A stretch of DNA of 64,000 bases, from positions 14,638 through 78,637 of the forward strand of contig CAYVLY010000001.1 in NCBI GenBank assembly GCA_964452565.1, written 5' to 3'. Shown piece after piece: positions 20,223 through 61,583 of this stretch (the first letter of the stretch is position 1; each line of letters starts with the position of its first letter). The translations under genes and the position numbers were made by a program. The notes beneath the pieces were generated by a model. It had not been told where the DNA came from. It ran no database searches and was given only the letters and a program-made list of their open reading frames with translations. Source of the DNA: an uncultured Gammaproteobacteria bacterium (GTDB lineage: Bacteria; Patescibacteriota; Patescibacteriia; UBA9934).

Positions 20223-20729
20223 ATGCTTTCCAAGTGCAAAGGATTCACACTGGTAGAGATGTTGCTGTATTCGGTTACGGTTAGTTTTGTTATGTTTGGA
20301 ATTGTGGCTTTTCTGACTCTTTCTTTAGAGAATCGAGTTGAAAACACTGTTATTTACGAAGTAGAGCAGCAAGGGAATTACGTTATGAATCTTATAATGC
20401 AAACCATTCGAAATGCAGAGAACGTGACTGCGCCGACTTCTGGAAGCTCAGGATCGTCATTGACTCTCGATGTTTTTGATGTCGGAGTTGATCCAACTGT
20501 GTTTTCATTGTCAGGAACGACTTTGCAGGTGACTGAAGCAGGCGGGGGTGCTGTTGACTTAACATCAGATCAAATCGAAGCCTCGAGTTTAAGCTTTGAG
20601 CATTTATCAAACGGATTTGACCATTCAAGTGTACGGATCGAATTTACACTAACTCACATCAATCCAATTAACAGGCAAGAGTGGGATTATGCAAAAACAT
20701 TCACCACAACAGCGTCACTGCGACAGTAG
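20223..20729 (+). CDS. Pseudopilin (prepilin-type N-terminal cleavage/methylation domain)
   Basis: MLSKCKGFTLVEMLLYSVTVSFVMFGIVAFL, a canonical G|FTLVE signal. Confidence 0.75.
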   Translation: MLSKCKGFTLVEMLLYSVTVSFVMFGIVAFLTLSLENRVENTVIYEVEQQGNYVMNLIMQTIRNAENVTAPTSGSSGSSLTLDVFDVGVDPTVFSLSGTTLQVTEAGGGAVDLTSDQIEASSLSFEHLSNGFDHSSVRIEFTLTHINPINRQEWDYAKTFTTTASLRQ

Positions 20730-21204
20730 ATCGGCGAGTAGATTCTTCGGCCTGTGGCCTCAGAATGACAAAACGACTTGTCATCCTGAGCGAGCCGTAG
20801 GCGAGTCGAAGGATCTACTGGAGGGCTTCACAACATTAGTGGCTGTTTTGATTGTGGGAGCAGTTGCAACAGCCGCAGTTGTCTCAATGCTTGTGTCTGG
20901 TGTTGGTTCACTTCAATCCAGTTTAGCGATCCAAAGATCAGGACTTGCCCGTCATTATGCCGACACGTGTGCAGAAGAGGCACTTCACCAGCTTTCAGAA
21001 GACACGTCGTATGCAGCTGGTGCAACTCTTGTGTTTGATTATGGAAATTGTGCGGTAAATGCCATAAGTGGCTCGGGTGCTACGAATCGAGTTATACAAG
21101 TTACGGGTGCTGTGGATACAGTTGCTAGAAGAGTTGAAGTAGATGTCTCTGACCTTAGCGGACCAGTTATCCTCAATTCATGGCAAGAAGTAGCAAGTTT
21201 TTAG
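20689..21204 (+). CDS. Pilin-like/pseudopilin protein whose N-terminal (leader) region is largely encoded by an in-frame palindromic repeat element
   Basis: Hydrophobic pilin-type helix EGFTTLVAVLIVGAVATAAVVSMLVSG follows an unusually long leader. The leader overlaps the family-C palindrome at 20726-20819. Start is ambiguous: ATG 20689 overlaps the upstream gene by 41 nt; GTG 20839 is an alternative. Confidence 0.45.
   Translation: MQKHSPQQRHCDSRSASRFFGLWPQNDKTTCHPERAVGESKDLLEGFTTLVAVLIVGAVATAAVVSMLVSGVGSLQSSLAIQRSGLARHYADTCAEEALHQLSEDTSYAAGATLVFDYGNCAVNAISGSGATNRVIQVTGAVDTVARRVEVDVSDLSGPVILNSWQEVASF
20726..20819. repeat. Palindromic repeat element, family C (H2-loop-H1 arrangement), inside the 5' end of a pilin-like CDS
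   Basis: agtagattcttcggcctgtggcctcagaatgaca-aaacgactt-gtcatcctgagcgagccgtaggcgagtcgaaggatctact. Same arms as the copy in ugd at 36340-36402. Confidence 0.75.
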
Positions 21205-26701: not shown

Positions 26702-26739
26702 ACACGTAATGAGCGTGTCTGTTTTATTTTGAGTTCTAA

Positions 26740-26761
26740 CCCCTTCCTTACGAAGGAGGGG
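26740..26761 (+). promoter_or_regulatory. SD/anti-SD hairpin (family D) in 5' leader of the DUF559 gene
   Basis: ccccttcctt-acg-aaggagggg pairs a Shine-Dalgarno-like AAGGAGG with a 16S-3'-end-like CCTCCTT. A second free SD (gataggggagg) follows immediately, before the ATG. Confidence 0.45.
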
Positions 26762-26776
26762 ATAGGGGAGGTTTTC

Positions 26777-27130
26777 ATGACTGAGTTATTTAACAAAAAA
26801 CAAGAAAAAGAGAAGCGGAGGAATTTACGTTTTAATCAGACATTTGCCGAAAAGACAATTTGGTCACATTTAAGGAGAAAACAGTTAGGGGTTCGATTCA
26901 GGAGGCAGTTTGGTATTGGTACTTATGTAGTTGATTTCTACTGCCCAAAGAAATATTTGATCATTGAGATAGACGGGGATACTCATTTTGAAGTTCATCA
27001 GATCGAATATGATCTAAAACGTTCGAAATACTTTGAAAGTCTTGGGATGAAAGTTGTTAGATTTACAAATCAGGAGATATATCAGGATCTTGATAGAGTA
27101 TTGTTAACAATTAGGAATTTAATTAACTAA
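26777..27130 (+). CDS. DUF559 / Vsr-like endonuclease-domain protein
   Basis: YVVDFYCPKKYLIIEIDGDTH ... KVVRFTNQEI, the PD-(D/E)xK very-short-patch-repair-like fold. Start placed after the hairpin; the ORF track starts at 26729. Confidence 0.7.
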   Translation: MTELFNKKQEKEKRRNLRFNQTFAEKTIWSHLRRKQLGVRFRRQFGIGTYVVDFYCPKKYLIIEIDGDTHFEVHQIEYDLKRSKYFESLGMKVVRFTNQEIYQDLDRVLLTIRNLIN

Positions 27131-27143
27131 TTACCCCCTCCAT

Positions 27144-27200
27144 CTCCCCCTTCGAAAGGGGGAGGGTTGAGAAGCTAACCCCCTCCTTACGAAGGAGGGG
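27144..27200 (+). promoter_or_regulatory. Duplicated family-D hairpin leader (two hairpins incl. SD/anti-SD stem) upstream of 27219 gene
   Basis: ctccccc-ttcgaaa-gggggag then cccctcctt-acg-aaggagggg-ataggggagg. Near-identical to the 26740-26775 leader. Confidence 0.45.
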
Positions 27201-27218
27201 ATAGGGGAGGTTATTGAT

Positions 27219-28052: not shown

Positions 28053-28103
28053 ATAATTACCATCCCGACGTTAGGACCTGCCTGCCGGCAGGCAGGGGGA
28101 TCC

Positions 28104-28143
28104 CGGCCGGCCTTATGAGATTCGCAGTCGGCCGTTTATTTTC
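28104..28143 (+). terminator. Terminator hairpin with T-run (preceded by family-B palindrome at 28062-28100)
   Basis: cggccg-loop-cggccg-tttattttc. Upstream: catcccgacg...cctgcctgccggcaggcagg. Confidence 0.5.
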
Positions 28144-28200: not shown

Positions 28201-28491
28201 CTAGCAGGTATCTTTCAGGATGAAGAAGAGGGCGTTGTCACTCTCGAGGGCTACATAGTTGGCCAGCATCAGGTTCGAGACGCTCGCGATCAGGTGGGCG
28301 ATAGCCTCGTACTGGTGGGGCTCAAGCCCAGCGACAGTGAAGCCCTCGTTGCCGTTGTTGAGGATCAGTTGACCTTCAGCATCCCTCAGGATGATGCGGC
28401 CCCGGATCTGCTTGTCGAAGCAGATACGACATCCGGCAACTAGCTGCGTGCCCTCGCAACGCAGACTTCCCGTGTCCTTCGTGGTGAGCAT
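28201..28491 (-). CDS. Hypothetical protein, ~58% GC ORFan
   Basis: 96-aa ORF with higher GC than its surroundings. Hairpin acaccccg-tcgag-cggggtgt lies ~25 nt past the stop. No motif recognised. Confidence 0.35.
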   Translation of the reverse strand: MLTTKDTGSLRCEGTQLVAGCRICFDKQIRGRIILRDAEGQLILNNGNEGFTVAGLEPHQYEAIAHLIASVSNLMLANYVALESDNALFFILKDTC

Positions 28492-30342: not shown

Positions 30343-30392
30343 GGTCCTGAGCGACTGAAGGGAGTCGAAGGGAATACAGAACCCAGAATGCA
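30343..30392. repeat. Composite repeat: family-C arm (cctgagcga...gagtcgaaggg) fused to family-A unit (cagaacccagaatgcaga), at left edge of GC-rich island
   Basis: gtcctgagcgactgaagggagtcgaagggaatacagaacccagaatgcaga. Confidence 0.6.
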
Positions 30393-30395
30393 GAT

Positions 30396-30461: not shown

Positions 30462-30539
30462 CACCTGTTCCCACAAACCTTCGTGAGAGGGGCGTGAGTG
30501 GGATTGTACAACCCCAGCCCCCCGAAAGGAGGAGGGACT

Positions 30540-31352
30540 ATGAGAATCATCAGGAAGAGAATGCCCGAAGACTGGGCGCCCGACATTCCGGAATGGATGG
30601 ACCGTGACGATGCGCTCGAGCTCTACTGGCAGGCAGCGCTCAGGCACATGGCTTCGACGATGTTGAAGGTCTTCGCCCTCGGCGTGCTGGCCCCCATCGC
30701 TCTGCTGGTCATGCTCTGGCTCGGCTACAAGGGGATCGAGTGGAACTACAGCCTGTACTCGCTCGATCCGGTCGAGGTCTGCAGTGATGCGGACATGGAG
30801 CTCTGGCGTCACTTCGACCAGGACGGCAAGCGCACCGTGGCATGCATCATGGGTATCAAGCTTGATGACTTCGAGGACGACGTCTACGAGCACGATCTCT
30901 ATTTCTACAGCCAGGCCAAGTCCGACTTCTGGCCCTGGCCTGCGGAAGAGCTCTACTCCGAGAGCTTCGTGGTGCTCGAGACTGGAGAGCAGACCGATAA
31001 GTACCTCGAAGGAGAAGACATCGATCAGTTCATGGCTATGTGTTCAATCGGCGGTGGCGAGCTCATCGCTCGCAGTGGCGGGCAGTTGGAGATCGATGCC
31101 AAGATACTGGAGGGCACCCTCTCGGTCGAGGGCATCCAGCTCCACACCCGTGCTATGACCTGGTGCGAGAGTACCGGCGCCGGCGTTTTCTTCTACAGCG
31201 CTGATGCCCTGCGTCCGATCTGGGTGTGTGAGGGTGACGAGCCTGAGGAGGGTGAGTCGGACGAGCGCGAGTGCGACTGGAAGGTGACGGGCGACGACAA
31301 CAACGCTCAGCATCGCACGGTCGTCTCCGAAGATACGACCAGCGAATCCTAG
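30540..31352 (+). CDS. Hypothetical membrane protein (GC ~60%), island gene 1
   Basis: ATG with a canonical SD; the ORF track starts at 30498. One TM helix (VFALGVLAPIALLVMLWLGY), acidic Cys-containing C-terminal region. Terminator hairpin at ~31370-31420. Confidence 0.5.
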   Translation: MRIIRKRMPEDWAPDIPEWMDRDDALELYWQAALRHMASTMLKVFALGVLAPIALLVMLWLGYKGIEWNYSLYSLDPVEVCSDADMELWRHFDQDGKRTVACIMGIKLDDFEDDVYEHDLYFYSQAKSDFWPWPAEELYSESFVVLETGEQTDKYLEGEDIDQFMAMCSIGGGELIARSGGQLEIDAKILEGTLSVEGIQLHTRAMTWCESTGAGVFFYSADALRPIWVCEGDEPEEGESDERECDWKVTGDDNNAQHRTVVSEDTTSES

Positions 31353-31432: not shown

Positions 31433-31491
31433 TTGATTTATTTGGCGATTAATGTAAAACTAATGCGTCGAATCCGGAACTCAAACCGGCG
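31433..31491 (+). promoter_or_regulatory. Cassette promoter + conserved leader, copy 1
   Basis: TTGATT-16 nt-TAAAAC then leader gcgtcgaatccggaactcaaaccggcg (small hairpin ccgg-aactcaaa-ccgg). 43/45 identical to the copy at 32136-32194. Confidence 0.45.
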
Positions 31492-31513
31492 ACTAGCGGA
31501 TCCAGAGGATCGC

Positions 31514-31981
31514 ATGGGAAATAGCAAGTCCGGACGCATGCCGGCCCACAAGGCACTCATCGAGGGTCTTGACTACTTCATCGGCTGCGGTGGTATCGGT
31601 GAACCCCACAAACACGGCCAGCTCGAAAGGAGCAAGGGTGAGGATTGCGAGGTTCGCGAGGTCAACCATCTCGACGTGCTCGAGCCCTGGGTCAGGTATG
31701 TGATCCTGCCCAACGGCAAGGGTGAGGCACGCGGCATCGCTGAGCAAATCATTGGTCGTCTCGGTGAGCTGCATGAGATGGCGCTCTCCGAGGTATCCAA
31801 GAGCTTGATCTCGGGCATGATCCAGTCCCTGCAGGCCGACTACCTCAAGTCCGACAGCGACGCCGATGGGCACAGCGACAGCCACGTAGGTGAGGATCAC
31901 CTCGGGCCTGGCGAGTGCTCGCCTGGCATGGGGCAGGCTGCTGCGGCCATGATCGAGGACGAGCTCGAGCGGCAGGGCTGA
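31514..31981 (+). CDS. Hypothetical protein (GC ~60%), island cassette gene 2
   Basis: ATG 31514 downstream of the conserved leader. The opposite-strand ORF 31493..32020 has an L/A/V/R-rich composition typical of GC antisense and was rejected. Confidence 0.4.
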   Translation: MGNSKSGRMPAHKALIEGLDYFIGCGGIGEPHKHGQLERSKGEDCEVREVNHLDVLEPWVRYVILPNGKGEARGIAEQIIGRLGELHEMALSEVSKSLISGMIQSLQADYLKSDSDADGHSDSHVGEDHLGPGECSPGMGQAAAAMIEDELERQG

Positions 31982-32002: not shown

Positions 32003-32134
32003 GCGCACTACTACGTACACATCCCCGGTTATCGCGACCGGGGATTGAAGCTTTTTACAGAATGCAGAACCCAGAAGACAGAACCCAGATTGGAGTTTGC
32101 GGGTTCTGGTGTCTGGCGTCTGGGTTCTGTTATG
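32003..32134 (+). repeat. Cassette 3' module copy 1: terminator hairpin + family-A imperfect palindrome (~130 bp)
   Basis: cgcactactacgtacacat-ccccggttatcgcgaccgggg-attgaagcttttt then cagaacccagaagacagaacccagat-tggagtttg-cgggttctggtgtctggcgtctgggttctgttatg. >95% identical to 32652-32782. Confidence 0.75.
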
Positions 32135-32194: not shown

Positions 32195-32232
32195 GCAGGA
32201 AATTCATGAAGTGGCAAATAGGAGGAGAAAGC

Positions 32233-32640
32233 ATGGAATTTCAAGGTGGGCATTGGGATGTCACAGTTCTGTTAAAGGGACTGAGCGAGAGTGACGGCTT
32301 GGTGGGAATAGATCCGCGTATCGATACCTGTACAGGTCCCGAAGCCGGTACGTTGGAGGTAGTATGTTGCCTCTTGGGAACAGAACGCATTCCCAGGGAT
32401 CAGCTGTTGGGGTCAGTTCCGATTATGGTCCACTATCTTGAGCGTCTTATTGATGTGGCGATTGCAGAGAGAACCAAGTTGAAGCTTCTGCAAGAGATCC
32501 ACATCCTGCGTGATCAATGCGCACGGGCAGGCTTGGTGATTCTCACTGGGATCATCGATGACACTTTGAACTCTCTCAAGCTCAAGATCGCGGGTTGTGG
32601 TGAGGTCCGTTGCCATCGACATCGCAGAGGCCTTGGCTGA
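32233..32640 (+). CDS. Hypothetical protein (GC ~58%), island cassette gene 3
   Basis: ATG 32233 with SD AGGAGGAGAAAGC. No recognisable motif. Confidence 0.4.
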   Translation: MEFQGGHWDVTVLLKGLSESDGLVGIDPRIDTCTGPEAGTLEVVCCLLGTERIPRDQLLGSVPIMVHYLERLIDVAIAERTKLKLLQEIHILRDQCARAGLVILTGIIDDTLNSLKLKIAGCGEVRCHRHRRGLG

Positions 32641-32651
32641 TACACCCTGCG

Positions 32652-32782
32652 CGCACTACTACGTACACATCCCCGGTCATCGCGACCGGGGATTGAAGCT
32701 TTTTACAGAATGCAGAACCCAGAAGACAGAACCCAGATTGGAGTTTGCGGGTTCTGGAGTCTGACGTCTGGGTTCTGTTATG
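32652..32782 (+). repeat. Cassette 3' module copy 2 (terminator hairpin + family-A palindrome); right edge of GC-rich island
   Basis: Near-identical to 32003-32134. Its end overlaps an extended -10 (TGATAAAAT) for uvrD. Confidence 0.75.
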
Positions 32783-34946: not shown

Positions 34947-35303
34947 ATGACGAGATGGCAGCCATATCACAAGCTAGTAGCATACAAAGAGGCAGATGCA
35001 TTTTTGAAGAAAGTCTATGGGGCGACTGCATGTTTTCCAAAATCGGAAATGTATAATTTGACATCGCAGTTTAGAAGAGCAGCGCTGTCTGTCGTTTTGA
35101 ATATAGTAGAAGGTCAGGCAAGGGGTTCTAAGGCAGATATGAGAAGGTTCCTGTTTATATCCAGAGGTTCATTAGCTGAGTGCGCTTACCTACTAGAATT
35201 TTCTCGAGAAATAGGATATATAGATGCCAGTAAATACGAGGAGTTGGAGTCACAAAGGCGTAAAGCTGGATATCTTTTGCAAAGACTGGTTGATAGCCTC
35301 TAA
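34947..35303 (+). CDS. Four-helix-bundle protein (TIGR02436 / Avd-like, '23S rRNA intervening-sequence protein' family)
   Basis: YKLVAYKEADAFLKKVY ... NLTSQFRRAALSVVLNIVEGQARGS ... FLFISRGSLAECAYLLEF is the characteristic family pattern. Flanked by short inverted repeats (tgataagaggt) at 34891-34941 and 35301-35345. Confidence 0.8.
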   Translation: MTRWQPYHKLVAYKEADAFLKKVYGATACFPKSEMYNLTSQFRRAALSVVLNIVEGQARGSKADMRRFLFISRGSLAECAYLLEFSREIGYIDASKYEELESQRRKAGYLLQRLVDSL

Positions 35304-35927: not shown

Positions 35928-37271
35928 ATGAAAATCGCAATCATCGGAACCGGCTATGCCGGATTAGTTACAGGAGCATGTCTTGCATCGCGCGGACATG
36001 AGGTTGTTTGTGTTGATATTGATGAGAGTAAGATCAATGCGCTGAAGAATGGTGAGATACCAATCTACGAGCCAGGTCTCACAGAAATCGTGCAAGAGGG
36101 CATTGATCGAAATTTGCTAACATTCACTACTTTGGCTTCTGAAGCTATTCCAGGGGTTCAGGTTGTGTTTTTGGCAGTAGGAACTCCGCCAGCTGACGAT
36201 GGTTCTGCAGATCTAAAGTATGTATTTCAGGCAGTTGAGGATATTGCACCATATTTATCAGAATCATGCGTGGTTGTTAGTAAAAGTACTGTGCCAGTTG
36301 GTACAAATGCGAAAATCAAGGATAGGATTCTCATACTCCGTCATCCTGAACGCAGTGAAGGATCTACTCGAGTAGATTCTTCGGCAGTGCCTCAGAATGA
36401 CAGTGGCGATATTTTTGTAGCATCAAACCCTGAGTTTTTGCGCGAAGGTAAGGCAATAGATGATTTTATGAAGCCTGATCGTATTGTGTTGGGTGTTGAC
36501 TCACCGCAGGCGACAGCTGTTCTAAAAGAGGTTTATAAGGATTTTGACTGTCCGATCTTGGACGTCTCAATCGAATCAGCTGAGATGATCAAGTACGCAT
36601 CAAATGCATTTTTGGCTGCAAAGATTTCATTTATTAACGAGATTGCCAATATTTGTGAAGGAGTTGGAGCAGATGTGAAGGATGTGGCGCGTGGGATGGG
36701 GTCAGACCCAAGAATCGGACCTGCATTTTTAAATGCAGGAATTGGATATGGGGGTTCCTGTTTTCCCAAGGATGTGCGAGCGCTTGATCAGATCGCTGGT
36801 GTGAATGGCTACGATTTCAAGCTTTTAAAGTCAGTTATCCAAGTCAACAATGACCAGCGCTGGAGATTTTATAAAAAGGTAGAAAAGGTTTTAAAGGGGG
36901 TAGAGGGAAAAAAGATCGCAATTCTTGGCTTGGCATTCAAGGCAGGAACTGATGATATTCGTGAATCAATTGGAATTGACTTTGCTCAAAAGTTTATCGA
37001 AAATGGCGCGCGAGTTTCAGTTTACGATCCTCAAGCTATGGATAATGCTCGTGAGGTTCTTGAAAGAGTTGGGTTTTACGATTCGATCGAAGAAGCTGCT
37101 AAAGGATCAGATGCGATCGTAATTACCACTGAGTGGAATGAATTTAAAGACTTTGATTTTTCAAAAGTCGCGGATCAAGTTAGCCAAAAACTAGTATTTG
37201 ACGGCCGTAATATCTTGTCTAGAAAAAATATCGAGAATCAAGGATTTAGGTACTTTGGAATCGGTCGTTAG
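35928..37271 (+). CDS. ugd: UDP-glucose 6-dehydrogenase carrying an in-frame 63-nt palindromic element insertion
   Basis: N-terminal MKIAIIGTGYAGLVTGACLA Rossmann motif, SNPEFLREGKA, catalytic GGSCFPKD. Between VPVGT and NPEFLREG it carries ~20 extra residues (LRHPERSEGSTRVDSSAVPQNDS) encoded by the family-C palindrome. Confidence 0.9.
   Translation: MKIAIIGTGYAGLVTGACLASRGHEVVCVDIDESKINALKNGEIPIYEPGLTEIVQEGIDRNLLTFTTLASEAIPGVQVVFLAVGTPPADDGSADLKYVFQAVEDIAPYLSESCVVVSKSTVPVGTNAKIKDRILILRHPERSEGSTRVDSSAVPQNDSGDIFVASNPEFLREGKAIDDFMKPDRIVLGVDSPQATAVLKEVYKDFDCPILDVSIESAEMIKYASNAFLAAKISFINEIANICEGVGADVKDVARGMGSDPRIGPAFLNAGIGYGGSCFPKDVRALDQIAGVNGYDFKLLKSVIQVNNDQRWRFYKKVEKVLKGVEGKKIAILGLAFKAGTDDIRESIGIDFAQKFIENGARVSVYDPQAMDNAREVLERVGFYDSIEEAAKGSDAIVITTEWNEFKDFDFSKVADQVSQKLVFDGRNILSRKNIENQGFRYFGIGR
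36340..36402. repeat. Palindromic repeat element, family C (H1-H2 arrangement), inserted in-frame in ugd
   Basis: gtcatcctgaacgcagtgaaggatctact-cg-agtagattcttcggcagtgcctcagaatgaca. 63 nt = 21 codons. Confidence 0.8.
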
Positions 37272-37356: not shown

Positions 37357-39498
37357 ATGTCAGAAACATTAAGAAAACGACTTACATCCTATCTTGGCAT
37401 TGCGGTCATTGCTATGATGGTGTTTGGCGTTCTAGCTTCAACCTTCCAGGTGCCGACAGCGAGGGCAGTTGCAGGTGACGGAGCATCAAGTGCTATAACA
37501 TTACTTGATACAAATGCAAACGGAAAACTTGACCGAATTACATTTAGTGTTGCAAATCCAAACACAGAAACCTGGTCATTGACAGGAGCCTCACCTAATG
37601 GATTTTCAGTAACTGACGATGGTGCAGATATTACTATTACTACAGTTTCAATTACATCTGCAGCTGATGCTAACCCAGTTCTCGTGCAGGTAAATCTTGA
37701 TGAGTCAGATACGGACTTAAGTGTAGATACAGCCAATACAGGTGCAACTGGATTGGAGCTTATCTATACTCAGGGGAATTTAGGGTCAAACTGTGTGGCT
37801 CAGGCTTGTCTAACAGATGACACAGATGAAGAGCTTAATGTTATAGCAACTGGGGATAGCGGCGGAACGGATACAGAGGCAGATGGTGCCGCACCGCAGA
37901 TTGCGTCATTCTCATATGCTGATGGTGGAACAGGAGATGGAAAGGTGAGTGCAATGACTGTTACATTTACTGAGACTCTTGATACAGCATCAGTCTTGGG
38001 AGCAAATGATCTCACTTTTACTAATGTTGGAGATTTTACAGCAGCAGCTTTTGGAAGTGATGCAACAGATCTGGTAACGTCTGGTGTTTCTAGTGTTACT
38101 GTGACATTAGGTACAGGTTCAACAGCAGTGGATACTCGTGAAAATTCTGGAACAATCGCTGTTAGTTCACAAAATTTATTCTCACTAACAGATGGGACTA
38201 CTGCCAACACCACACTGGGAGCTCAGACGCAGGCAACATTCCTAGATACAATGAAACCAGTTATAACCTCAACTACACCAACAGATGCTTCCTCAGTACA
38301 GTCACGAACAAATGCACTTGTTTGGAACTTCTCAGAGGCTATGGCTACTGCCGGAGGATGGACAGAGGGTGCAGCTGCAGCTGCTGAGTTTGAGGCATCT
38401 CCAGATCCAGGAGGATGGGGAACTCCAGCATGGAGTAACAGTGACAAGACGGTTACTATCTCTCACGCACCATTCTTGTGTATTACAGATTACACAATGA
38501 CAACCGACGATACTCAAATCAATGCTGCAAACGGTGAAAGCGGATTTGTAGCGCTTAATGATGCGGCCACAACTCCAGTAGGTGTTGCATCAACCTTCAC
38601 AACAATGTCTTGTGGAACAGCATCAACATCTGCGGCTGAAGATACAGAGACAACCTACGAAATAGATGTTCTTACACCAAACGGCGGCGAAACTCTTACA
38701 GAAGGTGAAGAGTATGAGATCACATGGGAAGCAGATCCTGAAGGAGAATATTACATTGATCTTTACTATCTAGACGGCGAGGATTACGTGGAGATTGCAA
38801 CACAAGAAACAAACGATGGATCGTACACATGGGAGGTCCCAGCAGATGTTGAGGATTCATTAGTGAAAGTTGTATGGACAGACCTCGCAGATGAGCTAGA
38901 TTCAGATACATCAGATGCTGATTTTAATGATACAGACGGAGTTAGCGAAGCTGAAGAAGAGGAAGTAGCAGACGAAGAAGAGGAAGTAGCAGACGCTGAA
39001 GCAGCAGAAGCACCATCTGGAACAGGAATATCTCCTGTGACAGGTGAAGAAGAAGAGATAACAGCTGTAGAACCAGGAGATTTCATCACAAGCCCTTCAT
39101 TCTCTACTGTCTACTATGTAACAGAAGACTTTGAACGAAGAGCGTTCATAAGTTCAGCAGTATTCTTCACATATGCTGATTCATACGATGAAATCAAGGA
39201 TGTAACAGATGCAACACTTACAGCATTAACTCTTGGAGACAACATGCTTCCAAACCCAGGAGTAGTACTAGTGAAAGTACAGTCTGATGCTAAGACATAT
39301 GCTGTAGATGACAGCTATAACCTAAGATGGATTACATCTGAGGAAGTAGCAGAAGATCTATACGGAACAGACTGGGCAGATTACATCATTGATATAGAAG
39401 CAACATTCTTTGCATCATTTGGAGCAGGAGACGATGTTGATTCAACTGATGACCTTACCGTGGGTGATATGAAGACACGGGAGGAAGTCTCACAATAA
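37357..39498 (+). CDS. Large secreted surface protein, paralog 1 of tandem family (beta-sandwich repeats, acidic linker, conserved C-terminal module)
   Basis: Signal peptide MSETLRKRLTSYLGIAVIAMMVFGVLASTFQVPTARA. Shares an N-terminal region with the 41750 gene and a Kre9/KNH-like small beta module (GEEYEITWEADPEGEYYIDLYY...GSYTWEVP). Its E-rich linker and C-terminal module are identical over ~100 aa to the 39626 gene. Confidence 0.75.
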   Translation: MSETLRKRLTSYLGIAVIAMMVFGVLASTFQVPTARAVAGDGASSAITLLDTNANGKLDRITFSVANPNTETWSLTGASPNGFSVTDDGADITITTVSITSAADANPVLVQVNLDESDTDLSVDTANTGATGLELIYTQGNLGSNCVAQACLTDDTDEELNVIATGDSGGTDTEADGAAPQIASFSYADGGTGDGKVSAMTVTFTETLDTASVLGANDLTFTNVGDFTAAAFGSDATDLVTSGVSSVTVTLGTGSTAVDTRENSGTIAVSSQNLFSLTDGTTANTTLGAQTQATFLDTMKPVITSTTPTDASSVQSRTNALVWNFSEAMATAGGWTEGAAAAAEFEASPDPGGWGTPAWSNSDKTVTISHAPFLCITDYTMTTDDTQINAANGESGFVALNDAATTPVGVASTFTTMSCGTASTSAAEDTETTYEIDVLTPNGGETLTEGEEYEITWEADPEGEYYIDLYYLDGEDYVEIATQETNDGSYTWEVPADVEDSLVKVVWTDLADELDSDTSDADFNDTDGVSEAEEEEVADEEEEVADAEAAEAPSGTGISPVTGEEEEITAVEPGDFITSPSFSTVYYVTEDFERRAFISSAVFFTYADSYDEIKDVTDATLTALTLGDNMLPNPGVVLVKVQSDAKTYAVDDSYNLRWITSEEVAEDLYGTDWADYIIDIEATFFASFGAGDDVDSTDDLTVGDMKTREEVSQ

Positions 39499-39520
39499 AA
39501 TCTGACATAGATTAAAAGTA

Positions 39521-39548
39521 AAAACCCCCGCTCTTGCGGGGGTTTTTG
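39521..39548 (+). terminator. Rho-independent terminator
   Basis: aaaacccccgc-tctt-gcgggggttttt. Confidence 0.7.
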
Positions 39549-39583
39549 TATCCACACATTAACTCAAGCGCAAGTGAATATCT

Positions 39584-39592
39584 TGTTATAAT
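39584..39592 (+). promoter_or_regulatory. Extended -10 element (TGtTATAAT) upstream of paralog 2; same motif at 41723-41731 upstream of paralog 3
   Basis: cttgTTATAATgat is duplicated in front of both downstream paralogs. Confidence 0.35.
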
Positions 39593-39625
39593 GATCAATG
39601 AAGTATTACTCTGAACCACCAACTT

Positions 39626-41671
39626 ATGTTGAAAATTCTATCAGGAAGTTTTTTTGCGATCATACTGTGTATGATCTGGTTTGTATTGCCAGCAGGAAAT
39701 GCTCATGCTGCAAATGCAATTTCGGCAAAGGTATGGATAGATGCAGATGCAGATGGGACAGTCGATCACATCAAGCTTACCTGGGATGCAAACATTACCC
39801 AGTGTACTTATGAAGCAGGGGATTGGACGGTTAATAATGCCAGTCCCCTGACCATTGCGATTACTGGAATTAATACTTCCGATCCAGAAGGGAATGGCGA
39901 TGGAGCCTGTGACGGAAACGATGCAGTTATTTATGTATCTGTCACAGCAGACGCTGGTGAGACAAGCTCTGGAGCTGCTCCAGTTATTTCATATACTAAT
40001 CAGGGAACAGCTAATTCACTTCAAGACTCCGGCGTTATTACAAACAAGCCGAGTATTTCATGTCTAGACGGGGCTCCCCCGCAAATAATCACAGCTAAAT
40101 ATTCAGATCTAGACGCAGACGGAATGATTGATCAGTTTACAATTGATTTTTCAGAGGTTCTGGTTGCGGCATCTGTTTTAGCGGCAGATAATCTCACATT
40201 AACAAATGTAGGAGATTTCACTTCTGCGGCATTTGGAAGCAGTACAACTGATTTAATTACAGGCGTTGTCGGTAATGCAAATGTGACACTTGGCACTGAG
40301 GCGTCTGTCAAAGATACGTTTGAAGGTTCTAGTAATATTGCTATTACAACGGTAGATGGAAACGCAGCTTTTACATTAGAAGATACAAATGGGAACATAA
40401 ATACAACTCCAAAGCTAGAGACGCAGATTACTTTTGAGGACAATGCTAAGCCAATTATTACAAGTGTGACTCCAGATGTAGGCTCTGTTGCTCAATCAAG
40501 AACAGACGCGTTTGTATGGAATTTTTCAGAGCAAATAGATTCATCAGGGGGTTGGGTAAGTGGCGCCGAGTTTTTACCAATACAATCTATAAGTGGCTTT
40601 GGAGCCGCTGTTTGGAGTAATAGCGATACAACAGTAACTATCACACATGCACCACTATTATGTGTAACTAACTATGTTATCGATACTATACCCATGGAGA
40701 TTGATGCTGTTAATGGCAGTGTTGGGTATACACAGCTGCAACCAGGTTTTGGTATGGATTTCACAACCATGTCCTGTTCCACAGATTCAGACTCAGATTC
40801 ATCAACAGCAGTTGAGGTGACCTATGACATCGAGGTACTCACACCAAACGGGGGCGAGACTCTAACAGAAGGTGAAGAGTATGAGGTCACATGGGAAGCA
40901 GATCCTGAAGGTGAGTATTATATTGATCTTTACTACCTAGACGGCGAGGATTATGTAGAGATTGCTACACAAGAAGCAAATGATGGATCATACACATGGG
41001 AAGTGCCAGAGGGTGTCGAAGATTCGATGATTAAGGTTATATGGAATGATTTGGCCGATGAGTTAGATTCAGACACGTCAGATTCAGTATTTAATGCAAC
41101 CGAGGATGCTACTGATACAGATGATGATGCTGATACAACCGATGATGAAGACACCACTGAGGACGCAGACGAAGAGGCAGCAGAAGCACCATCTGGAACA
41201 GGAATATCTCCTGTGACAGGTGAAGAAGAAGAGATTACAGCTGTAGAAGCAGGTGACTTCATCACAAGCCCTTCATTCTCTACTGTCTACTATGTAACAG
41301 AAGACTTTGAGAGACGAGCATTCATTAGCTCAGCAGTATTCTTCACATATGCTGATTCATACGATGAGATCAAAGATGTAACAGATGCAACGCTTACAGC
41401 ATTAACACTGGGTGACAACATGCTTCCAAATCCAGGAGTAGTACTAGTTAAAGTGCAATCTGATGCTAAGACGTATGCTGTGACTAGTGATTCTCAGCTC
41501 GGGTGGATTGAGAGCGAGGACGATGCCATTGAGATTTATGGAGAGGATTGGGCGGATTATGTTATTGACATCGAATCTGTTTTCTTTGGTCAATTTACGA
41601 TCGGAGACGATGTTGATGACCCAGAAGATGTTGAGCTTATCGAAATGAAGACACGTGAGTCCTTACAATAG
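39626..41671 (+). CDS. Large secreted surface protein, paralog 2
   Basis: Signal peptide MLKILSGSFFAIILCMIWFVLPAGNAHA. 40830-41470 is ~85-90% nt-identical to 38660-39300 in paralog 1 (gene conversion). Confidence 0.75.
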   Translation: MLKILSGSFFAIILCMIWFVLPAGNAHAANAISAKVWIDADADGTVDHIKLTWDANITQCTYEAGDWTVNNASPLTIAITGINTSDPEGNGDGACDGNDAVIYVSVTADAGETSSGAAPVISYTNQGTANSLQDSGVITNKPSISCLDGAPPQIITAKYSDLDADGMIDQFTIDFSEVLVAASVLAADNLTLTNVGDFTSAAFGSSTTDLITGVVGNANVTLGTEASVKDTFEGSSNIAITTVDGNAAFTLEDTNGNINTTPKLETQITFEDNAKPIITSVTPDVGSVAQSRTDAFVWNFSEQIDSSGGWVSGAEFLPIQSISGFGAAVWSNSDTTVTITHAPLLCVTNYVIDTIPMEIDAVNGSVGYTQLQPGFGMDFTTMSCSTDSDSDSSTAVEVTYDIEVLTPNGGETLTEGEEYEVTWEADPEGEYYIDLYYLDGEDYVEIATQEANDGSYTWEVPEGVEDSMIKVIWNDLADELDSDTSDSVFNATEDATDTDDDADTTDDEDTTEDADEEAAEAPSGTGISPVTGEEEEITAVEAGDFITSPSFSTVYYVTEDFERRAFISSAVFFTYADSYDEIKDVTDATLTALTLGDNMLPNPGVVLVKVQSDAKTYAVTSDSQLGWIESEDDAIEIYGEDWADYVIDIESVFFGQFTIGDDVDDPEDVELIEMKTRESLQ

Positions 41672-41682
41672 AAAGTATAAAT

Positions 41683-41725
41683 AATAAGCACCGAGTGTCC
41701 ACAGGGCATTAGGTGCTTATTTTGT
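41683..41725 (+). terminator. Terminator hairpin
   Basis: aataagcacc-19 nt loop-ggtgcttatttt. Confidence 0.55.
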
Positions 41726-41749
41726 TATAATGATTAAAGATTACGGCCT

Positions 41750-43813
41750 GTGAATTGCGCAGTTTTTGAATATTACAAATCGTTTATCGCCTCAGTCCTC
41801 ATGTTTGGGCTTGTTTTTGGTTTTGTAATCCAGATTGAGTCAAATCAGGTACATGCAGCAGGTGGAGATGGCGCAACAAGTGATATCTCTTTGTTAGATA
41901 CTGATGCAGACGGTGTACTTGACAGAATAACGTTTAGAATTGCAAATCCAAATACTGAGACATGGAGCCTAACTGGACTATCACCACATGGTCTTCAGGC
42001 CCAGTGGAGCGGATCAGACGTAACAATAAATAGCGTTTCAATAACTTCAGCAGCTGATGCGAATCCAGTTTTAATTCAAGTCGATTTAGATGAGAGTGAT
42101 GCAGATTTGTTAGCAGATACATCAAATACGAATTTGGAGCTTGGCTATGTTCAGGGTAATCTCGGATCGAATTGCACAACAGAAGCTTGTATCACTGATG
42201 ATACAGACGAGGAGATGAATGCCATAGTCTTAGGCTCTAATACTGGTCCAACAAACATCGAAAACGATGGAGCAGCGCCCGTAATAGCACAATTTCGATA
42301 TAAAGACCGTTCAGGTGATGGGATTGTTGATCGTGTTCAGCTGAGGTTCACAGAGACAATAACAGCTGCATCATCTTTAGCCAGGAATGACTTATTAATA
42401 ACAAATGTTGGTGATTTTACTGATGCTGCGTTTGGAGGAAATACTGATGATCTGGTTACTGGGTCTTTGCAAGAAGTAAACATTAACTTGGGCACGGATG
42501 CTTCAGTGGTTGATACATATGACGATACTGCAACCTTTGCAATAAGTACTCAAAATGGATTTTCAATTACAGACGGAACAAACACCAATAGCACTCTTGG
42601 TGCACAAACACAGGCATCGGTGAGGGATAGGGCAAATCCAGTTATCACAAGCACAACTCCAACCGATGATACTACAGTACAATCAAGAACAAACTCTGTT
42701 GTGTTCAACTTTTCAGAGCCGATGGTGACGACCTTTGCGGAGGGAACCCAGTTTGAATCAACCCCAGATCCAGGAAACTGGAGTGCAACAGCTAGTAATG
42801 GTGATGAGACGATCACACTTACTCACAATAACTTCCTATGCATAACCGATTATGTAATCACAACAACTGAAGCATTTGTTCTTTCTGCGAATGGTGACGC
42901 ATTATTTAAGCCATTAATTGAAACCGGACCATTTGATGGAACGCTGTCTTTTACAACAATGTCATGTGGCTCAGAGTTTATCGAGGCACCTGAGTATTCA
43001 TTAGAAGTTGATGATCTATCTTGTGATGCTCAATTGCTCGAAGGGGATGAATACGAGATAACCTGGAGCAGTTCACATGATGATCAGTACTATATTGATC
43101 TCTTTTATACTGATTCGAGCGGTGAATATGTAGAGATTGCAACAAATGAGTCAAATGATGAGAGTTACACATGGATTGTCCCTGAAGATCTAGATTCAAC
43201 AACTATCAAGGTTGTGTGGCAAGATCTGGCAGATGAGATTGACTCAGGTGAGGTGGAGCTCACATGCGGGGATCAGGTCGTCGATGACCAAGATGACCAA
43301 GAAGATGGCGATCAAAGTGGTGACGGGGAGCTTGACGATGAGGAAGAAGAGGAAGTTGAGGTTGAAGAAGGTGAATTTAGTGAAGGTGATCTACTGCGCC
43401 TAGATTTCTCCCCGATTGTTTATCATGTGACCTCGGAAGGTACTCGGCGGCCGTTTGCAGACCCGTATACCTATTTCACGCATTATGATTCATTTGAAGG
43501 CGTACAAGTGGTTAGTACTGATCAGATTAGTCAGTTAGAAATTGGAATGCCAATGATGCCAGCGCCTGGAATAGTTTTGGTTAAGACCCCATCAAATCCT
43601 CAAGTATTTGCTATTAATGAGGCTGAAGAGCTGCAATGGGTTGTTTCAGAAGAGCTTGCAATTGTGTTATTTGGAGATAATTGGGCTGACTATGTAATTG
43701 ATATAAACTCCGCAATACTATTTAGATTTACCAAGGGGCAATCAATAGTAACGATTGAAGATTGGAGGTTAGAAGGAAAAGAGATGAAGAGGCGCATAGA
43801 TTTAGCAGGATAA
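41750..43813 (+). CDS. Large secreted surface protein, paralog 3
   Basis: GTG start. Hydrophobic N-terminus ...SVLMFGLVFGFVIQIESNQVHA. N-terminal 250 aa parallel paralog 1 (AGGDGATSDISLLDTDADGVLDRITFRIANPNTETWSLTG...). C-terminal module IVYHVTSEGTRRPF...FGDNWADYVIDINSAILF. Confidence 0.7.
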   Translation: MNCAVFEYYKSFIASVLMFGLVFGFVIQIESNQVHAAGGDGATSDISLLDTDADGVLDRITFRIANPNTETWSLTGLSPHGLQAQWSGSDVTINSVSITSAADANPVLIQVDLDESDADLLADTSNTNLELGYVQGNLGSNCTTEACITDDTDEEMNAIVLGSNTGPTNIENDGAAPVIAQFRYKDRSGDGIVDRVQLRFTETITAASSLARNDLLITNVGDFTDAAFGGNTDDLVTGSLQEVNINLGTDASVVDTYDDTATFAISTQNGFSITDGTNTNSTLGAQTQASVRDRANPVITSTTPTDDTTVQSRTNSVVFNFSEPMVTTFAEGTQFESTPDPGNWSATASNGDETITLTHNNFLCITDYVITTTEAFVLSANGDALFKPLIETGPFDGTLSFTTMSCGSEFIEAPEYSLEVDDLSCDAQLLEGDEYEITWSSSHDDQYYIDLFYTDSSGEYVEIATNESNDESYTWIVPEDLDSTTIKVVWQDLADEIDSGEVELTCGDQVVDDQDDQEDGDQSGDGELDDEEEEEVEVEEGEFSEGDLLRLDFSPIVYHVTSEGTRRPFADPYTYFTHYDSFEGVQVVSTDQISQLEIGMPMMPAPGIVLVKTPSNPQVFAINEAEELQWVVSEELAIVLFGDNWADYVIDINSAILFRFTKGQSIVTIEDWRLEGKEMKRRIDLAG

Positions 43814-48028: not shown

Positions 48029-48040
48029 CCCGCGTTATCT

Positions 48041-48068
48041 CGACTGGGTTCTGTGTTCTGGGTTCTGA
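48041..48068. repeat. Family-A repeat copy (reverse orientation) followed by bidirectional terminator hairpin ccacgcc-tcaagg-ggcgtgg (48081-48100)
   Basis: gactgggttctgtgttctgggttctg is the reverse complement of cagaacccagaacacagaacccagtc. Adjacent to the GC-rich pentapeptide-repeat gene. Confidence 0.6.
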
Positions 48069-48867: not shown

Positions 48868-49001
48868 GTGCGTTCCTTGTCTTGTCTTTGGGTTTTTCTT
48901 GGCTGAGGATAGCGCTCTCTCGTAAAACGATACGAGTTTTTAAGCTATCACAAAGAAGGGCTTTTGTCAATCCCGCTCTGGTACGTTAAACTATATGCAT
49001 T

Positions 49002-55757: not shown

Positions 55758-55812
55758 CCATCCCGAGCGAGCGGAGACCCGTCCGACGGGTCGGAGCGAG
55801 TCGAGGGATCTC
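55758..55812. repeat. Palindromic repeat, family C-related (catcccgagcgag...gagcgagtcgagggatct)
   Basis: ccatcccgagcgagcggagacccgtc-cga-cgggtcggagcgagtcgagggatctc. A partial partner (agatccctcggcgttgctcgggatgg) lies at 56111-56136 on the other side of the GIY-YIG gene. Confidence 0.65.
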
Positions 55813-56095
55813 AAGTTATATCTTCATACAAATCGCGAAATAGCAGATTCATTTGTCTAATGAGTCTATTTTTCTTTTTCCTACTCCAGCGTTTGATTTG
55901 GTACTCGCGATGGATTGCTTCATTTATATCGTCATATGTCTCGTAATAGATTAACTTGTGTACATTGTATTTTTCAGTAAAACCTTTAACAAAATTATTT
56001 TTGTGTTGATAAACACGTCTAATTAAGTCGGCAGTTGATCCGCAGTACACCACCACATTGTTCTTGTTTGCGAGTATGTAGAAATAGCCTTGCAT
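55811..56095 (-). CDS. GIY-YIG nuclease-domain protein (UPF0213/YhbQ-like), flanked by palindromic repeats
   Basis: YFYILANKNNVVVYCGSTADLIRRVYQHK ... KGFTEKY ... LIYYE ... EYQIKRWSRKKK. Three alternative ATGs sit between 56095 and 56110. Confidence 0.75.
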   Translation of the reverse strand: MQGYFYILANKNNVVVYCGSTADLIRRVYQHKNNFVKGFTEKYNVHKLIYYETYDDINEAIHREYQIKRWSRKKKNRLIRQMNLLFRDLYEDIT

Positions 56096-56166
56096 AGACA
56101 TAAGCTTCAAGAGATCCCTCGGCGTTGCTCGGGATGGAAAGAATTAAGATTAGGACAAAATAAAAA

Positions 56167-61504: not shown

Positions 61505-61583
61505 TTTTCCATCCCGAGCGTAGCCGAGGGATCTCCCTGCCTGCCGGCAGGCAGGTCGATTCGCTTCGCTCTCTCGAAATGGA
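61505..61583. repeat. Nested palindromic element combining family-C arm (catcccgagcg...cgagggatct) and family-B core (cctgcctgccggcaggcagg)
   Basis: ttccatcccgagcgtagccgagggatctc-cctgcctgccggcaggcagg-...-ctctcgaaatggaa. Confidence 0.65.

What the first reader, a model, noticed from the sequence alone, without database searches (positions are those of the whole stretch)
36340..36402. Palindromic repeat element inserted in-frame inside UDP-glucose 6-dehydrogenase (RPE-like behaviour)
A 63-nt palindrome (gtcatcctga...gaaggatctact / agtagattcttcgg...cctcagaatgaca) lies inside ugd between the conserved VPVGT and NPEFLREG segments. It adds ~20 residues (LRHPERSEGSTRVDSSAVPQNDS) without breaking the frame. 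Other Ugd proteins (E. coli Ugd, B. subtilis TuaD, recalled from memory) are shorter by about that much at this position. The same element, with its arms swapped, encodes most of the leader of a pilin-like gene at 20726-20819. Related copies are intergenic (30343-30375, 55758-55812, 61505-61530). In-frame proliferation of palindromic elements into protein genes is classically described for Rickettsia RPEs. Here it would be an independent case.
Basis: partly seen in the sequence, partly recalled or inferred. Interest (0 to 1): 0.75.

Follow-up and report, generated by a model that had tools for sequence, protein, structure and literature searches.

The report
Hairpin repeat inserted in-frame in ugd
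A 64-base hairpin-forming repeat sits in frame inside the UDP-glucose dehydrogenase gene of a candidate-phyla-radiation bacterium and adds a 20-residue floppy loop, a real new example of something already described in Rickettsia and other bacteria.

Summary
Window 36339-36402 is a tail-to-tail dimer of two short hairpin units, each (C/T)GTC - ATYCT - GA - short stem/triloop - GA - AGRAT - CTAC. It lies in frame in ugd (35928-37271).

- **Indel:** three syntenic orthologs (74-78% identity) lack exactly 20 codons at this site. One ortholog (77%) carries the same insert.
- **Structure:** an AlphaFold model places the extra residues in an unstructured, low-confidence loop between a helix and a strand of the NAD-binding domain. 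All family-invariant residues are intact.
- **Second case:** the same units as a head-to-head dimer (20726-20819) add exactly 84 nt in frame to the cleavable leader of a pilin-like gene. An ortholog's empty site confirms this.
- **Clade pattern:** seven of the 12 closest Ugd orthologs carry palindromic inserts from at least four repeat families, at two loops. None of 108 more distant homologs does.
- **Likely partner enzyme:** sister-subfamily units bracket a 99-aa GIY-YIG nuclease gene (55811-56110). This matches the published Ssn nuclease/NTS-SRM repeat architecture, which includes CGTC-tagged REPs and Rickettsia RPE-4/-6.

I file it as a new member of a known kind. How the element moves is inferred, not shown.

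The parts
35928..37271 (+). ugd (UDP-glucose 6-dehydrogenase), 447 aa, the host gene of the insert
   Evidence: ORF list. PDB hits at E 1e-112. Identical protein P0001 carries the Pfam UDPG_MGDP_dh N, central and C domains. All invariant family residues, including GGSCFPKD with C278, are present.
36339..36402 (+). Tail-to-tail dimer of two hairpin units. The net insertion against orthologs is 60 nt, about 36339-36398, encoding RHPERSEGSTRVDSSAVPQN (residues 138-157).
   Evidence: Sequence, fold, 20-codon indel against L002/L003/L004, low-pLDDT loop. Only 1 of 3 frames per orientation is free of stops.
36339..36367 (+). Left unit: CGTC tag, ATCCT-GA-AC-GCA-GT-GA-AGGAT hairpin, CTAC tail
   Evidence: Strict unit pattern; folding of the single unit.
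36372..36402 (-). Right unit on the minus strand: TGTC tag, ATTCT-GA-GGC-ACT-GCC-GA-AGAAT hairpin, CTAC tail
20689..21204 (+). Pilin-like gene (GFTTLV prepilin-type N-terminus) with a leader lengthened from about 18 to 46 residues
   Evidence: ORF. Orthologs P0129 and P0130 and their alignment.
20726..20819 (+). Head-to-head dimer of the same units (20738-20770 on the minus strand, 20779-20818 on the plus strand) plus a partial GTAGATC. The net in-frame insertion is 84 nt, about 20729-20812.
   Evidence: Sequence, unit pattern, DNA alignment with the empty site of L128, open frame.
55811..56110 (-). 99-aa single-domain GIY-YIG nuclease gene. It is the candidate partner enzyme (Ssn-like) of the repeat super-family.
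   Evidence: Pfam PF01541, E 4.9e-16. Nearest solved structure is UPF0213 protein 1zg2. Units abut both ends of the gene.
55758..55812 (+). Long unit of the sister subfamily (CTCC-ATCCC-GA...GA-GGGAT-CTC) abutting the 3' end of the GIY-YIG gene
56111..56140 (-). Unit of the sister subfamily (TTCC-ATCCC-GA-GCAACGCC-GA-GGGAT-CTC) abutting the 5' end of the GIY-YIG gene
   Evidence: (I8).
61505..61535 (+). Single intergenic unit of the sister subfamily, downstream of the hpf-like gene

Best explanation
A dimer of short REP-type hairpin units inserted into ugd at a permissive loop, in the one reading frame of that orientation that has no stop codon.

The gene stays functional. The element is transcribed and translated with it and gives a 20-residue disordered surface loop between helix 126-138 and strand 163-166 of the NAD-binding domain. 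It is tolerated rather than useful.

The units belong to a hairpin family found across many bacterial phyla: (C/T)GTC tag, a 5-bp AT-start stem, a tandem G.A internal loop, a short inner stem with a GNA triloop, then a CT tail. The family has the organisation of CGTC-tagged REPs and Ssn-related motifs. Units occur as singles and as head-to-head or tail-to-tail dimers, mostly between genes. A few bracket a small single-domain GIY-YIG nuclease gene.

By analogy with NTS-ssnA-NTS and REP-RAYT, that nuclease is the most likely agent that recognises the single-stranded hairpins and spreads or maintains them.

Shown: the insertion, its frame, the empty orthologous sites, recurrence of the units, and the gene-bracketing architecture.

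Inferred: translation of the insert, its neutrality, and any role of the GIY-YIG nuclease in mobility.
For: - Palindrome and frame.
- Exact 20-codon indel against three syntenic orthologs.
- The same insert is present in an independent assembly (GCA_900089805.1), so it is not an assembly artefact.
- Purifying selection on the rest of the gene. Window versus L001 is 77.5% identical at protein level but only 49.6% at third codon positions, and all family-invariant residues are kept.
- AF2 model with mean pLDDT 85.6; residues 146-160 are below 50 and unstructured.
- A second in-frame copy sits in a pilin leader, with an 84-nt empty site in an ortholog.
- Only 2 of 6 frames are open for each dimer, and both copies use an open one.
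- Seven of the 12 closest orthologs carry palindromic inserts from other families at the same two loops, against 0 of 108 more distant homologs.
- Six strict units in the window against 0.2 expected.
- Bona fide in-frame copies exist in other phyla.
- A GIY-YIG gene is bracketed by units in the window and in L008, L027 and L049.
- Published parallels: PMC3733652 (CGTC REPs, dimers, intragenic copies, RPE-4/-6) and PMC11893778 (Ssn/SRM).
Against: - No expression or protein data exist, so translation of the insert is assumed.
- The units fail the published SRM search pattern, and the CGTC-REP stem and loop dimensions.
- The GIY-YIG gene in the window is bracketed by the sister subfamily, not by the exact units found in ugd.
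- Only 3 of 120 scanned loci show a unit-bracketed GIY-YIG gene.
- No transposition activity is known for Ssn nucleases (PMC11893778).
- The insert is more conserved between the window and L001 than 95% of 20-codon windows elsewhere in the gene: 86.7% against 72.6% nt, and 75% against 49.6% at third positions. A purely neutral passenger of that age would not show this. Some DNA- or RNA-level constraint, or a more recent origin, is needed.
Confidence: 0.8

Rival explanations
1. The in-gene hairpin is kept because it does something at the DNA or RNA level. Possible roles: a target for the Ssn-like single-strand nuclease that modulates recombination or transformation of this locus, or an mRNA structure that slows translation or directs processing. 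The peptide would then be a by-product.
For: - The insert is markedly more conserved than the rest of the gene at third codon positions, 75% against 49.6%.
- Both units of the window copy are still perfect hairpins.
- The exact dimer centre was found nowhere else in the metagenome collection except the orthologous ugd copy. This suggests long retention of one insertion.
- NTS repeats modulate transformation in Neisseria (PMC11893778).
Against: - Sister lineages do without the insert (P0004, 88% identical to P0002).
- Different repeat families occupy the same loops in other orthologs, which fits permissive sites better than a specific function.
- One arm of the L001 copy is already degenerate.
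Confidence: 0.12
2. The 20 residues are an ordinary lineage-specific loop of Ugd, and the palindromy and the resemblance to repeats are coincidental.
For: This loop varies in length among Ugd structures. One ortholog shares the segment.
Against: - The DNA is a 64-nt hairpin made of two units. The same units recur in another gene and, as a sister subfamily, around a nuclease gene.
- The same unit sequence occurs across many phyla.
- Three of the four closest orthologs lack exactly 60 nt.
Confidence: 0.03
3. The element is removed or skipped at the RNA level (intron-like excision or ribosomal bypass), so the protein does not contain the insert.
For: The element forms a strong hairpin. Translational bypass elements carried by mobile DNA do exist (bioRxiv 10.1101/2022.08.31.505936, listed).
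Against: - Every observed intragenic copy is a multiple of 3 and free of stops: ugd in two genomes, the pilin leader, and the other families at two ugd loops in five orthologs. That is what selection on a translated insert predicts. It would be unnecessary if the element were removed.
- No Rfam family matches anywhere in the window.
Confidence: 0.03
4. Assembly or binning artefact: a repeat was wrongly joined into ugd.
For: The source is a metagenome-assembled genome, and repeats are known to cause mis-assembly.
Against: The same insert at the same codon occurs in an independent assembly from another sample. The frame is preserved. The flanks are collinear with the orthologs.
Confidence: 0.01

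Closest known systems
Rickettsia palindromic elements (RPE; Ogata et al. 2000, from my own knowledge; RPE-4/-6 as summarised in PMC3733652)
   Same: Palindromic repeats inserted in frame in housekeeping genes that stay functional. The added peptide lies in a surface or permissive region. The same families also occur between genes. RPE-4 and RPE-6 are CGTC-tagged REPs, the tag type seen here.
   Different: The host is a Patescibacteria/CPR bacterium, not an alphaproteobacterium. The classic RPE-1 is longer, about 100-150 bp. The hairpin here has a tandem G.A internal loop and a 3-nt loop. Sequence homology to any RPE was not tested.
CGTC-tagged REPs (Di Nocera et al. 2013, PMC3733652)
   Same: An unpaired CGTC/TGTC tag at one end. 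The stem starts with A-T, T-A. There is a short 3' tail. Units occur as singles and as head-to-head and tail-to-tail dimers. Intragenic dimers encode 20-30 residues.
   Different: The described families have contiguous 8-9 bp stems and 4-5 nt loops with a CCA tail. Here the stem is 5 bp, then G.A/A.G, then 2-4 bp, with a 3-nt loop and a CTN tail. The inserts of orthologs P0006, P0008 and P0012 do fit the canonical form (TGTC-ATCCCTGC-GAAA-GCAGGGAT-CCA).
NTS / Ssn-related motifs with Ssn single-domain GIY-YIG ssDNA nucleases (Chenal et al. 2025, PMC11893778)
   Same: Directional hairpin repeats carrying a CGTC-type upstream tag. Repeats bracket a ~100-aa single-domain GIY-YIG gene (repeat-gene-repeat). 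The distribution across phyla is wide, and a small fraction of copies lie inside genes.
   Different: The units do not match the published degenerate SRM pattern. Membership of the window nuclease in cd10448 and its ssDNA cleavage are untested. The paper does not describe in-frame copies or CPR genomes in its main text.
REPINs / REP-RAYT systems (Bertels & Rainey 2011, PMC3116915, seen as title and abstract only)
   Same: Inverted dimers of REP units forming one long hairpin, dispersed in the genome, with the cognate enzyme gene flanked by the repeats. The four dimer units here end in CTAC, which reads GTAG on the other strand.
   Different: No Y1 (RAYT) transposase was seen. The L001 copy has CTGC instead of CTAC. 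The bracketed gene is a GIY-YIG nuclease.
Bacterial MITEs found in frame in genes (Delihas 2007/2008, PMC2229807, seen as abstract only)
   Same: Small non-autonomous repeats found both between and inside genes, where they add peptide segments.
   Different: No terminal inverted repeats of an IS and no target-site duplication are detectable. The element is much shorter (64-94 nt) and built from REP-like units.

Membership tests
RPE-like in-frame palindromic insertion (behavioural class) | Palindromic repeat inside an intact protein-coding gene, its length a multiple of 3 and free of stop codons | tested here: met
   64-nt hairpin, 60-nt net gain, open frame.
RPE-like in-frame palindromic insertion (behavioural class) | Orthologs without the element lack exactly that segment | tested here: met
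   L002, L003 and L004 lack 20 codons in ugd. L128 lacks 84 nt in the pilin leader.
RPE-like in-frame palindromic insertion (behavioural class) | The same element family recurs elsewhere in the genome, including intergenic sites | tested here: met
   6 strict units in 64 kb against 0.2 expected. Only the window was available, not the whole genome.
RPE-like in-frame palindromic insertion (behavioural class) | The insert lies in a surface or permissive part of the protein | tested here: met
   AF2 loop with pLDDT below 50 between H126-138 and E163-166. The loop varies in length among solved Ugd structures. The second copy is in a leader of the prepilin type.
RPE-like in-frame palindromic insertion (behavioural class) | The insert is translated into the mature protein | not testable with these tools
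   Needs proteomics or expression data.
CGTC-tagged REP (PMC3733652) | Unpaired terminal CGTC (or TGTC/CCTC) tag | tested here: met
   CGTC at 36339-36342. TGTC on the other three dimer units.
CGTC-tagged REP (PMC3733652) | Contiguous stem of 8-9 bp beginning with A-T, T-A; loop of 4-5 nt | tested here: not met
   The stem begins with AT but is 5 bp, then a tandem G.A, then 2-4 bp, with a 3-nt loop.
CGTC-tagged REP (PMC3733652) | Organisation as head-to-head or tail-to-tail dimers, with some intragenic copies | tested here: met
   Tail-to-tail dimer in ugd and head-to-head dimer in the pilin leader.
Ssn-related motif / Ssn system (PMC11893778) | Match to the degenerate SRM search sequence HGTCWYN(0-2)YYVSBRHN(0-5)WNVSBRGN(0-2)RNCYNB | tested here: not met
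   0 matches in the window, and none for any tested unit.
Ssn-related motif / Ssn system (PMC11893778) | Repeats flank a single-domain ~100-aa GIY-YIG gene on both sides | tested here: met
   Window 55758-56140 for the sister subfamily. L008, L027 and L049 for GTCATYCTGA..GAAGRATCT units.
Ssn-related motif / Ssn system (PMC11893778) | The nuclease belongs to CDD cd10448 and cleaves ssDNA next to its repeat | not testable with these tools
   Only Pfam GIY-YIG and weak similarity to UPF0213 structures could be shown.
REPIN / RAYT | GTAG tag and an associated Y1 (RAYT) transposase gene flanked by the repeats | tested here: inconclusive
   CTAC tails (GTAG on the other strand) are present on the four dimer units but not in L001. 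No RAYT was looked for systematically. The bracketed gene is GIY-YIG.
MITE | Terminal inverted repeats of a parent IS and a target-site duplication | tested here: not met
   No target-site duplication is recognisable at either filled/empty pair.

The most novel reading that the evidence does not exclude
These hairpin dimers are actively mobile in CPR genomes. They insert into, and excise precisely from, coding DNA through single-stranded intermediates handled by the bracketed Ssn-like GIY-YIG nuclease.

The patchy pattern would then be direct evidence of codon-precise gain and loss. The window and P0002 carry the insert while P0004, the 88%-identical sister of P0002, has a clean empty site. 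P0006, P0008 and P0010 show the same patchiness at two loops.

That would make Ssn-type nucleases the long-missing mobilising enzymes of CGTC REPs and Rickettsia-type RPEs.
Probability: 0.2. Interest if true: 0.65.

Novelty: new member of a known kind. Interest (0 to 1): 0.4.

Why it matters
It extends selfish palindromes carried inside working proteins from Rickettsia and a few other lineages to the candidate phyla radiation. It shows one housekeeping enzyme hit repeatedly at two loops by several repeat families.

It also ties such inserts to the recently described Ssn nuclease and hairpin-repeat systems. If the patchy presence and absence reflects precise insertion and excision, these small genomes would be a good place to test how CGTC-type REPs move, which is still unknown.

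In practice, such inserts inflate protein lengths, create spurious peptide families (HPERSEGS, VILSEAKDL, QND-type) and mislead annotation and alignment of CPR proteins.

Tried and rejected
- **Four-helix-bundle link.** I suspected from memory that the units go with four-helix-bundle (23S rRNA IVS protein) genes. tblastn found such a gene in only 1 of 120 unit-bearing loci, and not adjacent, so I dropped the idea.
- **Peptide census.** A 30-aa query against 1.84 billion representatives gave only 7 weak hits, mostly spurious ORFs read across repeat arrays.
- **Rfam** at gathering thresholds found nothing in the window.
- **Literal sequence and peptide strings** in the paper library returned only unrelated primer matches. 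The supplements of PMC3733652 contain none of the signature strings. The supplements of PMC11893778 are not held.
- **Gain or loss.** An NJ tree could not resolve whether the window groups with P0002+P0004 (24% bootstrap). One gain plus one loss cannot be separated from two gains.
- **Insertion boundaries and target-site duplication** could not be fixed to the base, because filled and empty sites are only about 72-84% identical.
- **First tree script** timed out and was rewritten.
Full report
**1. The observation**

Window 36339-36402 reads CGTCATCCTGAACGCAGTGAAGGATCTAC-TCGA-GTAGATTCTTCGGCAGTGCCTCAGAATGACA.
- The 83 nt around it fold into a single long hairpin: -28.8 kcal/mol, z = -3.3, with 2 of 200 shuffles as good.
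- The inner 26 nt form a 94% palindrome.
- It lies in frame in a 447-aa ORF at 35928-37271.
- That ORF is a UDP-glucose 6-dehydrogenase. It matches PDB 4a7p, 3gg2 and 2y0e at E 1e-109 to 1e-112, and an identical database protein carries all three Pfam domains.
- The best homologs are named Candidatus Uhrbacteria or Patescibacteria. The identical protein sits on a 709,517-nt contig.

**2. The indel coincides with the repeat**

I fetched the DNA of the four closest orthologs. All lie in the same gene order: uvrD-like helicase, RskA-like membrane protein, ugd, large Ig-like protein.
- Between VPVGT and NPEFL the window and L001 (P0002) have 45 codons. L002 (P0004), L003 (P0003) and L004 (P0005) have 25. 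The difference is exactly 20 codons.
- The inserted peptide is RHPERSEGSTRVDSSAVPQN, residues 138-157.
- L001 comes from a different assembly (GCA_900089805.1), which rules out an assembly artefact.
- All residues invariant across 22 Ugd sequences are present in the window protein.
- Window versus L001 is 77.5% identical in protein but only 49.6% at third codon positions. So the gene has stayed under purifying selection while carrying the insert.

**3. Structure**

An AlphaFold2 model built on the 22-sequence alignment has mean pLDDT 85.6. Residues 146-160 fall below 50 and show no secondary structure. They lie between helix 126-138 and strand 163-166 of the N-terminal NAD-binding domain. Solved Ugd structures differ in length at this loop.

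**4. Anatomy of the element**

The two 'arms' are separate hairpin units.
- Each unit is (C/T)GTC, ATYCT, GA, a 2-4 bp inner stem with a 3-nt loop, GA, AGRAT, CTAC.
- In ugd the tagged ends face outward, giving a tail-to-tail dimer.
- At 20738-20818 the tagged ends face inward, giving a head-to-head dimer.
- A strict unit pattern finds 6 units in the window against 0.2 expected.
- For each dimer only one of three frames per orientation lacks a stop codon. Both copies sit in an open frame.

**5. A second in-frame copy in the window**

The ORF 20689-21204 has a prepilin-type N-terminus (…EGFTTLVAVLIV).
- Its orthologs P0129 and P0130 have short leaders.
- P0129 starts MKRLSQQQRRSGSNRKPGFTTLV. 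The window protein starts MQKHSPQQRHCDS, then 28 extra residues, then DLLEGFTTLV.
- At the DNA level the window has exactly 84 extra bases between CAGTA and ATC.
- The start codon is therefore genuine, and the head-to-head dimer is translated as part of a leader. From general knowledge, prepilin peptidase removes such a leader. That makes it a very permissive site.

**6. The clade as a whole**

Among the 120 best Ugd homologs, rare internal inserts occur only in the 12 closest. Seven of those 12 carry at least one.

Site 1 is the same loop as in the window.
- P0006 and P0008 carry TGTC-ATCCCTGC-GAAA-GCAGGGAT-CCA preceded by a second hairpin.
- P0012 carries ATTCCCGT-GAAA-ACGGGAAT-CCA.
- Both have the form of canonical CGTC-type REPs and NTS.

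Site 2 lies after RWRFYKKI.
- P0008, P0010 and P0012 carry CCCCTCCTT..AAGGAGGGG-type palindromes. This is the family found in the window at 26736-27212.
- P0005 carries CCTGCC..GGCAGG. This is the family found in the window at 25265, 28077 and 61536.
- All of these inserts are in frame.

**7. Gain or loss?**

- P0002 (filled) and P0004 (empty) are sisters: 88% identity, 100% bootstrap. The window protein is about 77% identical to all four.
- P0006 and P0010 are also sisters (100% bootstrap). P0006 has only site 1, P0010 has only site 2, and P0008 has both.
- So the distribution is homoplastic. It requires either repeated insertion at the same codon or codon-precise loss.
- The centre of the ugd dimer (GAAGGATCTNCTCGAGNAGATYCKTC) was found in the metagenome collection only on the L001 contig. 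This favours one origin for the two ugd copies and later loss in P0004.
- The insert is 86.7% identical between the window and L001, and 75% at third positions. The rest of the gene is 72.6% and 49.6%. Only 4.7% of 20-codon windows elsewhere in the gene reach the insert's identity.
- A neutral passenger of that age should have diverged more. Either the hairpin is constrained at the DNA or RNA level, or the copies are younger than the genes. I cannot separate these.

**8. The wider family and its likely partner enzyme**

Hits came from Chloroflexota, Acidobacteriota, Bacteroidota, Nitrospirota, Firmicutes, Proteobacteria, Planctomycetota, Saccharibacteria, Gracilibacteria and others.
- Inner-stem variants covary: GC..GC against AC..GT, and ATTCT/AGAAT against ATCCT/AGGAT.
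- Of 172 units, most are intergenic. Bona fide in-frame copies occur in three proteins:
  - a Bacteroidales sigma-54 response regulator, between the AAA-lid and HTH_8 domains;
  - a gammaproteobacterial methyltransferase;
  - a Helicobacter NuoG-like protein.
- In the window, a 99-aa GIY-YIG gene (55811-56110, Pfam E 4.9e-16) is abutted on both sides by inverted units of a sister subfamily.
- In L008 (Saccharibacteria), L027 (Cyclobacteriaceae) and L049 (Gracilibacteria), homologous GIY-YIG genes are abutted by units within 6-38 nt. In L008 and L027 units lie on both sides of the gene; in L049 a strict unit lies only downstream.

**9. Comparison with what is known**

- Di Nocera et al. (PMC3733652) defined CGTC-tagged REPs. 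They form head-to-head and tail-to-tail dimers, and intragenic dimers encode 20-30 residues. Rickettsia conorii RPE-4/-6 and Neisseria dRS3 belong to them. No transposase is known.
- Chenal et al. (PMC11893778) showed that dRS3/NTS (CGTCATTCCCGCGMAVGCGGGAATCYRG) and related 'SRM' hairpins bracket ssnA. This gene encodes a single-domain GIY-YIG nuclease that cuts single-stranded DNA next to the repeat. SRM-rich genomes include Rickettsia and Wolbachia. About 2% of NTS copies lie inside genes.
- The window units share the tag, the AT-start stem, the dimer organisation and the repeat-gene-repeat architecture.
- They fail the literal SRM pattern, and the stem and loop dimensions of CGTC REPs.
- I therefore say the element works like these systems and is probably related to them. 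I do not file it as a member of either family as defined.
- I found no paper describing such inserts in CPR genomes, or this unit sequence. That search covers only the held open-access library.

**10. Verdict**

It is a new member of a known kind, not a new kind.

The most interesting open point is the codon-precise patchiness of inserts among close relatives, together with the bracketed GIY-YIG nuclease. That combination could make the mobility of CGTC-type repeats testable.

Noticed in passing
window 55758-56140: A 99-aa single-domain GIY-YIG nuclease gene (55811-56110, minus strand) is abutted at both ends by inverted hairpin units (CCATCCCGAGCG...CGAGGGATCTC). This is the repeat-gene-repeat layout published for ssnA/NTS. 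Homologous genes in L008 (7110-7376), L027 (3422-3649) and L049 (6293-6562) are likewise abutted by GTCATYCTGA..GAAGRATCT units; in L049 a strict unit lies only downstream.
   Followed up: partly
window 26729-27212: A DUF559 (PF04480, E 4.7e-32) endonuclease-like gene is bracketed by another palindromic family (CCCCTYCCTT..AAGGAGGGG) at 26736-26773, 27133-27165 and 27175-27212. The same family sits in frame at the second ugd loop of orthologs P0008, P0010 and P0012. Each repeat family may have its own small nuclease gene.
   Followed up: partly
window 34947-35303; L003 4102-4407: A four-helix-bundle gene (TIGR02436, 23S rRNA IVS protein / bAvd-like) lies between the uvrD-like and RskA-like genes in the window and in L003. 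It is absent from the same spacer in L001, L004, L125 and L126. This is a presence/absence polymorphism of a small, possibly selfish, gene.
   Followed up: partly
window 8280-8765(-), 10181-11380, 28201-28491(-), 30498-31352, 31433-31981, 48176-48925: Orphan ORFs with 57-60% G+C and no Pfam match lie in a genome of 41-44% G+C. Several sit directly next to REP-like hairpins (8191-8260, 28066-28104, 30343-30395, 32057-32130, 48018-48067). They may be foreign or mobile cassettes.
   Followed up: no
window 32003-32134 and 32651-32782: Two 132-nt direct repeats, 98% identical, each contain a CAGAACCCAGAA-type palindrome. They flank a 144-aa ORF (32206-32640) with no Pfam match. A third and fourth copy of the palindrome lie at 11865-11928 and 48018-48067.
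   Followed up: no
window 20727-20729: The stop codon TAG of the upstream pilin-like gene (20223-20729) lies in the GTAG at the edge of the inserted dimer. That gene overlaps the start of the next gene by 41 nt. PMC3733652 notes that REP termini supplying stop codons is common.
   Followed up: partly
window 37357-43813: Three tandem paralogous genes (713, 681 and 687 aa) with Ig-like domains (Kre9_KNH, Big_5) and acidic low-complexity tracts are spaced about 2.17 kb apart, directly downstream of ugd. Their shared segments are 80-92% identical.
   Followed up: no
L088 1046-4415 (uncultured Helicobacter sp.): Two long ORFs contain long in-frame arrays of QND/DSS peptide repeats that look derived from tandem copies of the hairpin unit. 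One is 1012 aa with NuoG-type Fe-S domains. This would be a far more extreme case of repeat translation than the ugd insert.
   Followed up: partly
L113 (Bacteroidales MAG), sigma-54 response regulator: The peptide VILSEAKNL...DSSANGLRMT, derived from a unit dimer, lies in frame between the AAA-lid and HTH_8 domains. A second unit-like peptide (PPERSEES) lies in the receiver-AAA+ linker.
   Followed up: partly
P0002 N-terminus, P0044 C-terminus (alignment A1): Some database Ugd proteins have N- or C-terminal extensions (MRYAVLDFELPTAYCILPTV; ...SILAPLVGIEIASLRSQ). These look like gene calls running into flanking repeats rather than real protein.
   Followed up: no
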